From the human T2T-CHM13v2.0 reference genome, Homo sapiens, in the NCBI RefSeq assembly GCF_009914755.1, contig NC_060936.1: a DNA stretch of 64,000 nt; one strand, given 5' to 3'. A program made the translations under genes and the position numbers. Shown here piece after piece: positions 22,291-24,690 of the stretch. A model generated the notes under the pieces. That model was not told the origin of the DNA. It ran no database searches and was given only the letters and a program-made list of their open reading frames with translations. Within the stretch, counting starts at the first letter, position 1. Each line of letters opens with the position of its first letter.

Positions 22291-22350
22291 AAGTAGCTTC
22301 CCTTAAAGAAAGCAGGAATTTGCCAGTGTTGGTATTTCAGGAATTTTATA
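22291..22350. repeat. Left arm of perfect 60-bp inverted repeat (partner 24631-24690)
   Basis: Exact reverse complement of 24631-24690. Confidence 0.97.
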
Positions 22351-22351
22351 A

Positions 22352-22389
22352 ACACACACACACACACACACACACACACACACACACAT
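22352..22389. repeat. (AC)n microsatellite in Alu tail
   Basis: Read directly. Confidence 0.98.
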
Positions 22390-22392
22390 ATA

Positions 22393-22662
22393 TTTGAGAT
22401 GGAGTTTCGGTCTTGTCACCCAGGCTGGAGTGCAATGGGATCTCAGCTCACTGCAACCTCTGCCTCCCGGGTTCAAGTGATTCTCCTGCCTCAGCCTCCT
22501 GAGTACAGGTGCATGCCACCACGCCCGGCTAATTTTTGTATTTTTAGTAGAGACGGGGTTTTACCATGTTGGCCAGGATGGTCTCGATCTCCTGACTTCA
22601 TGATCCATCCACCTCGGCCTCCCAAAGTGCTGGGATTATAGGCGTGAGCCACCACACCCGGC
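22393..22662 (-). mobile_element. AluS, apparently chimeric (Sp/Sq-like 3' end, Sc-like left arm)
   Basis: gagtttcggtcttgt and tgcaatgg versus aggatggtctcgatctcc; 10-bp internal deletion. Confidence 0.9.
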
Positions 22663-23973
22663 TTATCGCCTCACTTCTTACTGAAAAAAATAATCTTTCA
22701 TTGTTGTTTGCTTACTTTTTCCATAGTACCATTGTATTTTATAATCAATATCAGATGTGGAAAAAGACATTTAAAAAAAGACATTAAAGACATTAAAAAA
22801 AGACATTAGGCAAAGCCTGTTAATTTGTGTACTTGATTTTTATCTTCATTACTGTCATAATTTACACCATTGGTGTGCCTTAGTGTATAACTTCATTTAG
22901 CTGTTTGAAGACATTTCTTGATTTCATCTTCTTAGATTAACTTTGTTAGAAGTATCAGAATTCCATTGCATTGATAATACATGTTTACATACATATTTCT
23001 AATTAATAGTTCACCTAACCCTTTTAAAAACAGATATATACAGGAGTAGGGAGAGGCTATACCATGAGCTGCATTTAGAAGCAATGTTTCTAAGCTGTTA
23101 CTGTCATTTTGATTTGTCTGTCCCTCCAAACTGAACCACTAAAAGCTTGGCAGGATTCAGTTGAAGATGAACAGGAGTTAAATTTTTTCACTGATATTGT
23201 TTCTTTTCCACTTAGTGTTTCCTCTACTAGGAGCTAACTATGTCCAAAAACAGAATTTTGATTGGTGAGGGTGAAAAATGAAGTTTAGAACAATAAAATA
23301 AATACCTGTTCCAAATGTAACCTGCAGGTATTTCACAGTATTGCTTATTAATGGAAGTTATTTTTTGTGGTCTTTGTAGAATCAGTTATGAAATTACCAA
23401 CTTGGATATTTTAATGACTTCTTCTTGTAATTGTTTTTGCAATTTTATATTTTCAGGAAGTTCTATGCCAGGTCTCAAGCAGTTTATTAAAATTTGCCCA
23501 AGAGTAAATTCTACCACAAGTAAATCTCTTTGGAAACACTACCATTATGTTGTTATTTTATTGTCACAAGTCTCAGTAGTTGTGAAAGAGCAACCTTGGA
23601 AATTAAGGAATTGAAGCAAAGCAGATTTCCTGACAGAATAAAAATCAGTATCAGAATACCATTAACATTTACTAACATTTAATTTTTATTTATGGAATTG
23701 TTACCATATAGATGAAAGAATAAGTTATACATATATATATATATAGACAAATATGATGGACTGAATTACATATTTAATGGAGTCCACCTCAAAAGTAAAG
23801 ATTTATCAGTTGTTAAAAATTTTAGAAAGTTTTCTTTAAATTGTTTTAGCCTAATAGTATATTACATATTAGTGCTATCATTTATTTTTACGTGTATCAT
23901 CTTTTAATACTAGAAGCTCCATCAAAACAACCTAATTATAAAATCATCCGTTTAAATTGTTTTTTTTTAATAG

Positions 23974-24096
23974 AAAAAGTTACGTCGATCACAACACGCT
24001 CGCAAAGAAACAGAGTTCTTACGGCTCAAAAGGACCAGACTTGGCTTGGATGACTTTGAGTCTCTGAAAGTTATAGGAAGAGGAGCTTTTGGAGAG
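23974..24096 (+). CDS. STK38L: STK38L exon 4 (123 nt, phase 0/0): end of N-terminal regulatory domain incl. T75, and Gly-rich loop
   Basis: [41 protein letters not shown]; tag| and |gtgtgc. Confidence 0.97.
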
Positions 24097-24177
24097 GTGT
24101 GCTTCTTTTTAAAAGTCACTACTGCTGCAAATATATATCTTAAGATAATTTAAAATATGTGTTAAAATATAATTCCT

Positions 24178-24456
24178 GGCTGGGTGCGGTGGCTCACGCC
24201 TGTAATCCCAATACTTTGGGAGGCCGAGGCGGGTGGATCGCCTGAGGTCAGGAGTTCGAGACCAGCCTGGCCAGTGAAACCCCGTCTCTATAAAAATACA
24301 AAAATTAGCTGGGCGTGGTGGTGGGCACCTGTAATCCCAGCTACTTGGGAGGCTGAGGCAGGAGAATCGCTTGAGCCCAGGAGGCAGAAGTTGCAGTGAG
24401 CTGAGATCCCACCATTGCACTCCAGCCTGGGCAACATGAGTGAAACGCTCTCTCAA
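24178..24456 (+). mobile_element. AluSp/Sq-like
   Basis: Dimer; approximate TSD tataattcct / tataaaattcct. Confidence 0.95.
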
Positions 24457-24634
24457 AAAAATATATATATGTGTTTGTATGTATATATAAAATATATATA
24501 TATAAATATAAATATATAAATGTAAATATATAAATATATATAAATATATATTAATATATATAAAATATATATAAATATATATATAACATATATAAAAATA
24601 TATAGATATAAAAATATATAGATATATATATATA
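24457..24634. repeat. (TA)-rich low-complexity expansion of Alu tail
   Basis: Read directly. Confidence 0.97.
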
Positions 24635-24690
24635 AAATTCCTGAAATACCAACACTGGCAAATTCCTGCTTTCTTTAAGGGAAGCTACTT
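24631..24690. repeat. Right arm of perfect 60-bp inverted repeat
   Basis: Exact reverse complement of 22291-22350. Confidence 0.97.

What the first reader, a model, noticed from the sequence alone, without database searches (positions are those of the whole stretch)
22291..24690. Perfect 60-bp unique-sequence inverted duplication extends an inverted Alu pair into a clamp around in-frame exon 4
Seen: 22291-22350 (AAGTAGCTTCCCTTAAAG...CAGGAATTTTATA) is the exact reverse complement of 24631-24690 and is not recognisable repeat sequence. Inward, each arm continues into a related tail (shared aaacac..atatat..tttgaga, expanded as (AC)n on the left and (TA)n on the right) and then an Alu. The right Alu keeps its approximate TSD (tataattcct/tataaaattcct); the left Alu has no matching TSD and looks chimeric, its 3' end resembling the right Alu (tgcaatgg..gatctcagctcactgcaa). 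Inference: a fold-back template switch or gene conversion copied the right Alu's 3' end, tail and flank onto the left Alu. Zero mismatches beside clearly diverged Alus imply recent or repeated homogenisation, or selection. In pre-mRNA the arms could loop out exon 4 (123 nt, phase 0/0, aa 63-103 with T75 and GRGAFG), and the right arm ends 57 nt before the exon-5 acceptor. Predicted outputs: in-frame kinase-dead exon-4-skipped NDR2, a single-exon circRNA, or a perfect dsRNA substrate. At DNA level it is a substrate for an exon-4 inversion.
Basis: partly seen in the sequence, partly recalled or inferred. Interest (0 to 1): 0.8.

Follow-up and report, generated by a model that had tools for sequence, protein, structure and literature searches.

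The report
Inverted Alu pair with copied flank
Two oppositely oriented Alu repeats bracket exon 4 of the human kinase gene STK38L, and 60 bases of unique DNA beside the right one were later copied, inverted, onto the tail of the left one; this is a real but probably neutral repair scar on an ordinary inverted Alu pair.

Summary
22291-22350 is the exact reverse complement of 24631-24690 (60/60). The 60-mer occurs only at these two places in the whole assembly. It is the longest exact inverted repeat in 264 kb sampled and the only non-repeat one of the 25 longest (all 28 nt or more).

The two Alus are independent insertions of different subfamilies, 82% identical. The claimed likeness of their 3' ends is not beyond what unrelated Alus show. 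The copied unit is the right Alu's tail, its 3' target-site duplication and its unique flank. It joins the left Alu at the body/tail border. The arms are younger than the Alus (P about 0.009). The left Alu lacks its own target-site duplication.

Best reading: a break at the left Alu's tail was repaired by synthesis primed on the inverted right Alu, ran 60 nt into unique flank, and closed by end joining. A weaker rival is a Pol III read-through transcript as template, because the copy ends inside the first TTTT.

The functional claims (exon-4 skipping, circRNA) are generic inverted-Alu biology and untested. RefSeq lists one transcript, and I found no human STK38L circRNA paper.

The parts
22291..22350 (.). 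Left arm: inverted copy of the right Alu's 3' target-site duplication plus unique flank (in intron 3 of STK38L)
   Evidence: 60/60 reverse complement of 24631-24690 (I2); only 2 places in the genome
22351..22395 (-). Left tail: on the minus strand AAATATAT(GT)nTT. It is homologous to the start and end of the right Alu's tail and is taken as part of the copied unit
   Evidence: Sequence and alignment. The motif A-run, (TA)n, (GT)n directly after the Alu body occurs in only 2 of 72 full-length Alus sampled, L and R
22396..22662 (-). Left Alu body (L), antisense to the gene, full length, an independent insertion with the 'GAGATCGAGACCATCC' type of diagnostic pair
   Evidence: blastn 82.1% to R over 285 aligned columns, within the 73-85% range of R against other window Alus. 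Diagnostic pair A..T as in 11 of 44 motif-bearing Alus against T..G in 32, with 1 mixed. No target-site duplication
23974..24096 (+). STK38L exon 4, 123 nt, phase 0/0, aa 63-103 (T75, GRGAFG)
   Evidence: Hub annotation; translation
24178..24454 (+). Right Alu body (R), sense to the gene, in the 651-nt intron 4, with the 'GAGTTCGAGACCAGCC' type of diagnostic pair; the donor element
   Evidence: Target-site duplication tataattcctg (24167-24177/8) and tataaaattcctg (24631-24643) read
24455..24630 (+). Right tail: A7, (TA)n, GTGTTTGTATG, then a degenerate, internally self-complementary TA-rich array
   Evidence: direct-repeat families D1/D2 and inverted pairs I7-I15 within it
24631..24690 (.). 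Right arm: the original 3' target-site duplication plus unique flank; ends 57 nt before exon 5 (24748)
   Evidence: Continuous with the unique downstream intron, 117/117 self match only
24689..24692 (+). First T4 run (Pol III terminator-like) downstream of R; the homology ends inside it
   Evidence: 4.5% of junction positions in this window lie inside T>=4 runs

Best explanation
Two unrelated AluS-type elements inserted independently in opposite orientation. L is antisense in intron 3 and R is sense in intron 4 of STK38L.

Later, a break or stalled fork at L's A-rich tail was repaired using the inverted R Alu, 1.5 kb away, as a homeologous template. I infer this sequence of steps:
1. The 3' end of L's sense strand, ending in ...TCTC + A-run, paired with R.
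2. Synthesis copied R's tail, R's 3' target-site duplication and 60 nt of unique flank.
3. The new strand was released and joined without visible homology to the other broken end at 22290/22291.
4. L's own tail and 3' target-site duplication were lost in the process.

This is coupled homologous initiation with end-joining completion, or equivalently a replicative template switch. The microsatellites in the two tails then diverged: (GT)n grew in L and a TA-rich array grew in R.

The result is an ordinary intronic inverted Alu pair across exon 4 whose pairing potential is extended by a perfect 60-bp helix. It is most likely neutral. It could bias the competition among Alu partners toward looping out exon 4, but that has not been shown.

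Shown: the structure, its uniqueness, the independence of the Alu bodies, the position of the inner junction, and the younger age of the arms. Inferred: the repair pathway and any RNA effect.
For: - Exact 60/60 inverted repeat, with only 2 genomic places.
- R has its target-site duplication and natural continuity with the flank, and L's arm carries R's 3' version of that duplication. This gives the direction R to L.
- The Alu bodies are independent. They are 82% identical, like any other pair. Overall L-R differ at 55/282 columns, and 23 of 70 other Alus are as close or closer to L. They carry different linked diagnostic states.
- The tail start A(n)(TA)n(GT)n is shared by L and R only, 2 of 72, while the last 10 nt of the Alu bodies already differ at 3 positions. 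So the inner junction lies at TCTC/A-run.
- L's expected 3' target-site duplication is absent, as expected if the tail region was replaced.
- The arms are younger than the Alus. L-R non-CpG substitutions are 16/214, so P(0/60) = 0.009. Using L and R against the local consensus (12/220 and 11/226), my arithmetic gives P about 0.002 for arms as old as R.
- Pairing energies: the 60-mer alone is -103 kcal/mol, the Alu bodies -482, and the full arms -564. Seven competing Alu pairs range from -379 to -505.
- Inverted Alus across flanking introns, and their competition with within-intron pairs, are established drivers of back-splicing and splicing choice (review PMC11263572, passages).
Against: - No outgroup or second human assembly could be examined, so the pre-event sequence, the date and fixation are unknown.
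- The outer junction shows no microhomology that I can see, and the pathway cannot be read from one allele.
- The outer end falls inside the first T4 run after R. A DNA-templated model explains that only as a 4.5% coincidence.
- The tails differ greatly: 45 nt against 176 nt. So either much microsatellite change followed the event or synthesis skipped the TA array.
- The age argument assumes that Alu non-CpG sites and AT-rich unique intron mutate at similar rates. My local consensus also overstates L's divergence, because L belongs to the minority subfamily.
- For function: RefSeq has a single transcript that includes exon 4 (hub table), and no human STK38L circRNA paper was found.
Confidence: 0.55

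Rival explanations
1. RNA-templated origin. R was transcribed by Pol III through its tail and unique region to the first TTTT. A cDNA of that read-through transcript was made at a break next to L, or L was created in one step by reverse-transcriptase template switching from the R transcript to another Alu RNA at the A-run. This was non-canonical, endonuclease-independent and left no target-site duplication.
For: - The copy ends at 24690, inside the first T>=4 run (24689-24692) downstream of R. Only 4.5% of junction positions lie inside such runs.
- Genuine Pol III Alu transcripts consist of body + A-tail + unique region up to the first T4 (PMC3412727, passages).
- The inner junction at the A-run is also where a reverse-transcriptase switch would be expected (inference).
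- L is full length and lacks a target-site duplication.
Against: - Target-primed reverse transcription normally primes inside the A-tail, so new Alu copies do not carry the unique region (PMC3415434, passages).
- The flank 5'-GATATTT-3' at the junction has no complementarity to an RNA ending in U's.
- The one-step version makes the arms as old as L's body, which is disfavoured (P about 0.002-0.01; and my arithmetic).
- The terminator coincidence is post hoc, with p about 0.045.
- Pol III expression of R is unknown.
Confidence: 0.17
2. An old inverted duplication of Alu 3' end + tail + flank, with the 60-bp arms since kept identical by recurrent arm-to-arm gene conversion or by purifying selection on an RNA duplex that regulates exon 4 (skipping or circRNA).
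For: - A few shared derived states lie near the Alu 3' ends (CATTG, GAAAC, an inserted G, two CpG changes).
- L-R is in the closest 6.5% of pairs for the last 90 columns at non-CpG sites.
- The full L-R duplex is the most stable and the nearest of those compared.
- Loss of exon 4 has a known phenotype in dogs: the erd exonic SINE removes exon 4, and with it the S100B/Mob sites, part of the kinase domain and Thr-75 (PMC3184085, passages).
Against: - The 3'-end likeness is not significant. 8 of 70 unrelated Alus are as close to L, and there are 15/92 differences in that segment.
- Conversion that homogenises the arms should also homogenise the adjoining Alus, which are 82% identical.
- 60 nt without a mismatch is compatible with plain youth.
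- There is one RefSeq transcript with exon 4 (hub) and no human circRNA report.
- Exon-4 loss is deleterious in the dog.
Confidence: 0.08
3. The left arm is a copy of the empty (pre-Alu) site rather than of R's 3' junction. An inverted duplication of unique DNA came first, and two Alus later landed at nearly the same target in each copy.
For: R's 5' flank reads AAAATATGTGTT-AAAATATAATTCCTG. This resembles L's AAATATAT(GT)nGTT-TATAAAATTCCTG, so L's 'tail' could be read as empty-site sequence with an expanded GT run.
Against: - It needs two independent Alu hits at nearly the same spot.
- L matches the 3' version of the duplicated site (TATAAAATTCCTG), not the 5' version (TATAATTCCTG).
- No homology continues on the far side of L: L's 5' flank is unlike R's 5' flank.
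- The arms are younger than the Alus.
Confidence: 0.05
4. An assembly artefact, or a private variant of the assembled haplotype.
For: Only one assembly was examined. The left arm abuts an (AC)n microsatellite.
Against: - Both junctions are clean unique sequence within a well-behaved intron.
- The tails have diverged by many changes, which a mis-join would not produce.
- A scan of prokaryotic assemblies for the left junction found nothing, which is uninformative.
Confidence: 0.05

Closest known systems
Intronic inverted-repeat Alu pairs (IRAlus) flanking back-spliced or alternatively spliced exons (Jeck 2013; Zhang 2014; Liang & Wilusz 2014, as cited in review PMC11263572, passages seen)
   Same: - Two Alus lie in opposite orientation in the introns on either side of an exon.
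- A long predicted duplex forms between them (-482 kcal/mol for the bodies).
- Competing partners exist within intron 3 (18377+, 19618+) and across exon 5 (27812-).
   Different: - The pairing is extended by a perfect 60-bp helix of non-repeat sequence, separated from the Alu helix by unequal tails of 45 and 176 nt.
- No back-splice or skipping evidence exists for this exon.
Alu/Alu-mediated rearrangement and inverted-repeat-mediated template switching (AAMR; DUP-TRP/INV-DUP). PMC13041450 and PMC4352052, search listing and abstract starts only
   Same: - A switch to a nearby Alu in inverted orientation.
- An inverted copy-number gain.
- A second junction without homology.
   Different: - The scale is about 100-250 bp rather than kb to Mb.
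- The junction sits at the Alu body/tail border rather than inside the Alu body.
- It is apparently a benign allele in an intron.
Coupled homologous/non-homologous break repair, i.e. one-sided gene conversion finished by end joining (recalled: Richardson & Jasin 2000; not read here)
   Same: Homology is present on one side only, copying runs past the end of homology into unique donor flank, and the far end is an illegitimate join.
   Different: That mechanism is known from reporter assays. Here it is inferred from a single germline allele.
Canine erd allele of STK38L (PMC3184085, passages)
   Same: It concerns the same exon 4. Loss of exon 4 is in frame and removes the S100B/Mob sites, Thr-75 and the start of the kinase domain.
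   Different: - In the dog the cause is an exonic SINE insertion and the result is disease.
- In the human locus the repeats are intronic and exon 4 is in the only RefSeq transcript.
Pol III Alu primary transcript / 3' transduction by retroelements (PMC3412727 passages; PMC3415434 passages)
   Same: The copied segment (tail + unique region) ends in the first T4 run, as the transcript would.
   Different: - The Alu body is not a copy of the source.
- There is no target-site duplication and no terminal A-tail.
- Canonical priming occurs within the A-tail.

Membership tests
Intronic inverted Alu pair (IRAlus) flanking an exon | Two Alu elements in opposite orientation | tested here: met
   L on the minus strand (22662-22393) and R on the plus strand (24178-24462) by blastn; inverted pairs I1, I3-I6
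Intronic inverted Alu pair (IRAlus) flanking an exon | One element in each intron flanking the same exon of one pre-mRNA | tested here: met
   Hub exon table: intron 3 is 17827-23973 and holds L; intron 4 is 24097-24747 and holds R; exon 4 lies between them
Intronic inverted Alu pair (IRAlus) flanking an exon | Ability to form a long intermolecular-type duplex | tested here: met
   duplexfold gives -482 kcal/mol for the bodies and -564 with arms; net cofold gain is -354. This is a prediction only
Intronic inverted Alu pair (IRAlus) flanking an exon | Observed effect: back-splice, exon skipping or A-to-I editing | not testable with these tools
   No RNA data were available. No human STK38L circRNA paper was found. 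RefSeq lists 1 transcript (hub)
Canonical L1-mediated Alu insertion (for the L composite) | Target-site duplication flanking body + tail | tested here: not met
   L's 5'-flank 15-mer has no second copy with up to 3 mismatches apart from a chance-level hit at 19006. No match at 22290
Canonical L1-mediated Alu insertion (for the L composite) | A-rich tail at the 3' end of the inserted unit | tested here: not met
   The unit ends ...GCTACTT, which is unique flank, and not in A's
Retrocopy of R's Pol III read-through transcript (Alu 3' transduction) | Copy ends at the source's first Pol III terminator | tested here: met
   The first T>=4 run is 24689-24692 and homology ends at 24690; chance is about 4.5%
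Retrocopy of R's Pol III read-through transcript (Alu 3' transduction) | Alu body of the copy derives from the same source | tested here: not met
   82% identity, no closer than unrelated Alus; different linked diagnostic states
Alu-Alu gene conversion (classical) | Converted tract lies within Alu homology and is bounded by homology on both sides | tested here: not met
   The tract lies in tail + unique flank, and the outer junction at 22290/22291 has no homology
Palindrome arms kept identical by arm-to-arm conversion | Near-identity along the whole of both arms | tested here: not met
   The 60 nt are identical but the adjoining Alus are 82% identical and the tails are unalike
Alu/Alu-mediated template-switch rearrangement | Chimeric Alu at the homologous junction | tested here: inconclusive
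   The junction maps to TCTC/A-run at the end of the body. The 3' 90 columns are not significantly R-like
Alu/Alu-mediated template-switch rearrangement | Microhomology at the second junction | not testable with these tools
   This needs the ancestral left-flank sequence, i.e. an outgroup genome

The most novel reading that the evidence does not exclude
The left arm is a germline relic of RNA-templated repair. A Pol III read-through transcript of the right Alu (body, tail and unique region up to the first TTTT) was reverse-transcribed at a chromosomal break beside the left Alu, and the intermediate was resolved through Alu or A-run homology. This would be a natural case of an Alu 'unique region' being carried into a new site. 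As a side effect it created a perfect 60-bp intron-intron clamp around STK38L exon 4.
Probability: 0.15. Interest if true: 0.6.

Novelty: new member of a known kind. Interest (0 to 1): 0.27.

Why it matters
If the reading is right, this is a small, cleanly resolved example of how inverted Alus act as repair templates and drag unique flank with them. It shows that perfect non-repeat inverted repeats next to Alus can be repair scars rather than selected elements.

It gives a testable natural case for two questions. Does extending an inverted Alu duplex by a perfect helix shift the competition among Alu partners, and hence exon-4 back-splicing or skipping? Can Pol III read-through Alu transcripts template repair?

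The exon concerned is biologically sensitive. Its loss removes Thr-75, the S100B/Mob binding region and the glycine loop, and causes retinal degeneration in dogs (PMC3184085). A measurable effect would therefore be of interest. Nothing here shows such an effect.

Tried and rejected
- Known repeat: rejected. There are only 2 genomic places for the 60-mer and for a 117-nt extension, even at E<=10.
- Known RNA family in 21800-25200: none at gathering score.
- Left Alu as a retrocopy or duplicate of the right Alu: rejected.
- Chimeric left Alu 3' end: not significant, although a few shared derived states exist.
- Left Alu's own target-site duplication displaced further left: not found in the window.
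- Independent confirmation of the left junction in other assemblies: a scan of prokaryotic genome contigs, looking for possible human contamination, gave 0 hits, which is uninformative. No primate or second human assembly is reachable with these tools.
- Literature for a human STK38L circRNA or exon-4-skipped isoform:
  - 'STK38L' + 'circRNA' gave 23 papers, of which 15 were listed and 2 of those 15 opened. In both opened papers STK38L appears only as an mRNA, a target gene or in a reference.
  - 'circSTK38L / circ-STK38L / circ_STK38L / circNDR2' gave 1 paper, which has only a qPCR primer pair named circStk38l.
  - Supplementary circRNA tables were not searched and might list back-splices from this gene.
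- Staggered-break inversion with flanking inverted duplications: considered and rejected by reasoning, because it would require exon 4 to have been inverted.
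Full report
**Observation.** The sequence is as described. 22291-22350 is the exact reverse complement of 24631-24690: 60 of 60 bases, with 2280 nt between the arms (pair I2; read).

A search of the whole assembly with the 60-mer returned only these two places. A 117-nt query that extends the right arm to exon 5 returned the same two places and nothing else even at E<=10. The tool warns that very common words are skipped.

In 264,000 bases (the window plus 200 kb of neighbouring chromosome) I listed all exact inverted repeats of 20 nt or more within 10 kb. There are 162. The 60-mer is the longest, and the other 24 of the 25 longest listed (28-43 nt) lie inside Alus or in a (TG)n/(CA)n run. 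No Rfam family reaches its gathering score in 21800-25200.

Exon 4 (23974-24096) reads [41 protein letters not shown]. With 186 coding bases before it (hub table) this is aa 63-103, so T75 and GRGAFG are in it. The right arm ends 57 nt before exon 5.

**Anatomy.**
- Left, read on the minus strand: a full-length Alu body (22662-22396), then AAATATAT, a pure (GT) run, TT, then TATAAAATTCCTG...GCTACTT (the arm), then unrelated sequence.
- Right, on the plus strand: Alu body 24178-24454, seven A's, (TA)n, GTGTTTGTATG, a degenerate TA-rich array of about 150 nt, then the same TATAAAATTCCTG...GCTACTT, continuing naturally into the unique intron.
- The right Alu has a recognisable target-site duplication (tataattcctg before it, tataaaattcctg after it). 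The arm includes the 3' copy.
- The left Alu has none. The 15-mer next to its 5' end has no second copy in the window with up to 3 mismatches, other than a chance-level hit at 19006.

So the right side is the donor and the left side the recipient.

**The Alu bodies are not copies of each other.**
- R is 82.1% identical to L, and 73-85% identical to the other full-length Alus of the window.
- In an alignment of 72 full-length Alus, L and R differ at 55 of 282 body columns. 23 of 70 other Alus are as close or closer to L, and 34 of 70 as close or closer to R.
- At a pair of tightly linked positions, L has A..T (11 of the 44 Alus in which the motif could be read), R has T..G (32 of 44), and only 1 of 44 is mixed; the motif was not found in 28 of 72. 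That these positions separate AluS/Y subfamilies is recalled, but the linkage is measured here.

**The left Alu's 3' end is not convincingly 'right-like'.** A few derived states are shared near the 3' end: CATTG, GAAAC, an inserted G and two CpG transitions. Over the last 90 columns, however:
- L and R differ at 15 of 92 sites, and at 5 of 74 non-CpG sites;
- 8 of 70 unrelated Alus are as close or closer to L;
- 2 of 70 are as close or closer to R;
- 6.5% of all pairs are as close.

Over the last 60 columns the figures are weaker still (13% of pairs). The last ten bases of the two bodies already differ at three positions.

**The tails are related.** An A-run followed directly by (TA)n and (GT)n occurs after the body in 2 of 72 Alus, namely L and R. 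The copied unit therefore begins at the end of the Alu body (TCTC plus the A-run). It comprises tail, target-site duplication and flank.

**Age.** L and R differ by 16 substitutions at 214 non-CpG sites (7.5%). At that rate, 60 sites without a difference has probability 0.009.

L and R differ from the local consensus at 12/220 and 11/226 non-CpG sites. If the arms were as old as R, I calculate about 9.8% expected pairwise divergence and P about 0.002. Zero of 60 bounds pairwise divergence below about 4.9% at 95% (my arithmetic), which is roughly under half the Alus' age.

This makes the arms younger than the Alus. It does not require repeated homogenisation or selection.

Caveats:
- Alu and unique AT-rich sequence may not mutate alike.
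- The arms hold no CpG.
- My consensus is dominated by R's subfamily and so overstates L's divergence.

**Mechanism.** The simplest account is a break or stalled fork at L's tail. I infer that:
1. the 3' end of L's sense strand, ending in TCTC and A's and backed by about 82%-identical Alu sequence, paired with the inverted R 1.5 kb away;
2. synthesis copied R's tail and ran 60 nt into unique flank;
3. the product was released and joined to the other end without homology;
4. L's own tail and 3' target-site duplication were lost.

This is one-sided homologous repair completed by end joining, or equally a replicative template switch. It is a small relative of Alu/Alu-mediated and inverted-repeat-mediated rearrangements (PMC13041450 and PMC4352052, listing and abstract starts only; Richardson & Jasin 2000 is recalled). 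The pathway is inferred, not shown.

**A rival worth keeping.** The homology ends at 24690, inside the first run of four T's after R (24689-24692). A true Pol III Alu transcript is body, A-tail and a unique region ending at the first T4 (PMC3412727, passages). So the copied segment has the 3' end of R's primary transcript.

Only 4.5% of junction positions here lie inside T>=4 runs, but the test is post hoc. Against this rival:
- Reverse transcription normally primes inside the A-tail (PMC3415434, passages).
- The junction flank is not complementary to a U-ended RNA.
- A one-step origin with L's body conflicts with the age result.

I give this rival about 0.17.

**Function.** On the pre-mRNA the Alu bodies alone are predicted to pair at -482 kcal/mol. 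The 60-mer adds a -103 kcal/mol perfect helix, and the full arms give -564. Seven competing Alu pairs range from -379 to -505:
- L with 18377+ or 19618+ inside intron 3;
- R with 27812- or 29311- downstream;
- R with 17197- upstream;
- 17197- with 18377+ or 19618+, which involve neither L nor R.

The two helices are separated by unequal tails of 45 and 176 nt. Pairing of inverted Alus across flanking introns promotes back-splicing and competes with within-intron pairs (review PMC11263572, passages). Looping out of exon 4 is therefore plausible in kind.

Nothing shows that it happens here:
- RefSeq has one transcript, with exon 4 (hub table).
- Among 23 papers holding 'STK38L' and 'circRNA' (15 listed, 2 of the 15 listed opened) the gene appears as an mRNA, a target or a reference.
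- The one paper with 'circStk38l' holds only a primer pair.
- Supplementary circRNA tables were not searched.

Exon-4 loss is not harmless. In erd dogs an exonic SINE removes exon 4, eliminating the S100B and Mob sites, part of the kinase domain and Thr-75 (PMC3184085, passages).

**Verdict.** This is a real, unique and statistically striking structure, explained most simply as a repair scar that copied the right Alu's tail and flank onto the left Alu. The functional reading is generic inverted-Alu biology and is untested. It is a new member of a known kind, of modest interest. The dating by primate alignment, which I could not do, would settle the origin.

Noticed in passing
window 24146-24177 versus 24455-24500: The right Alu's 5' flank AAAATATGTGTT-AAAATATAATTCCTG resembles the start of its own tail (AAAAAAATATATATATGTGTT...AAAATATA...). 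Its target-site duplication may therefore be about 27 nt long, with the TA-rich 'tail' array having grown inside the 3' copy.
   Followed up: partly
window 24463-24630: A TA-rich degenerate array of about 170 nt, with many internal direct and inverted repeats (families D1/D2, pairs I7-I15). It is self-complementary, so it could form a hairpin in DNA or RNA and be a fragile or slippage-prone site. It fills a quarter of the 651-nt intron 4.
   Followed up: no
window 22351-22388: A pure (AC)n run (about 18 units) replaces the usual U-rich tract of an antisense intronic Alu. This removes the polypyrimidine tract that antisense Alus use for exonisation and creates a CA-repeat in the pre-mRNA. That CA repeats bind hnRNP L is recalled, not tested.
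   Followed up: no
window 22765-22810: Short tandem copies of an AAAGACATTA-like unit, read by eye (gacatttaaaaaaagacattaaagacattaaaaaaagacattagg), inside intron 3.
   Followed up: no
window 24094-24102: The exon 4 donor reads GAG|gtgtgc, which departs from the usual gtaagt-type consensus at +4 and +6 (consensus recalled). A weakish donor could make the exon more sensitive to intronic structure. It was not scored.
   Followed up: no
window 27526-27812 and 29028-29311: Two minus-strand Alus in introns 5 and 6 pair with the right Alu about as well as the left Alu body does (-461.5 and -505.3 against -481.6 kcal/mol). Loops over exon 5 or exons 5-6 therefore compete with the exon-4 loop.
   Followed up: partly
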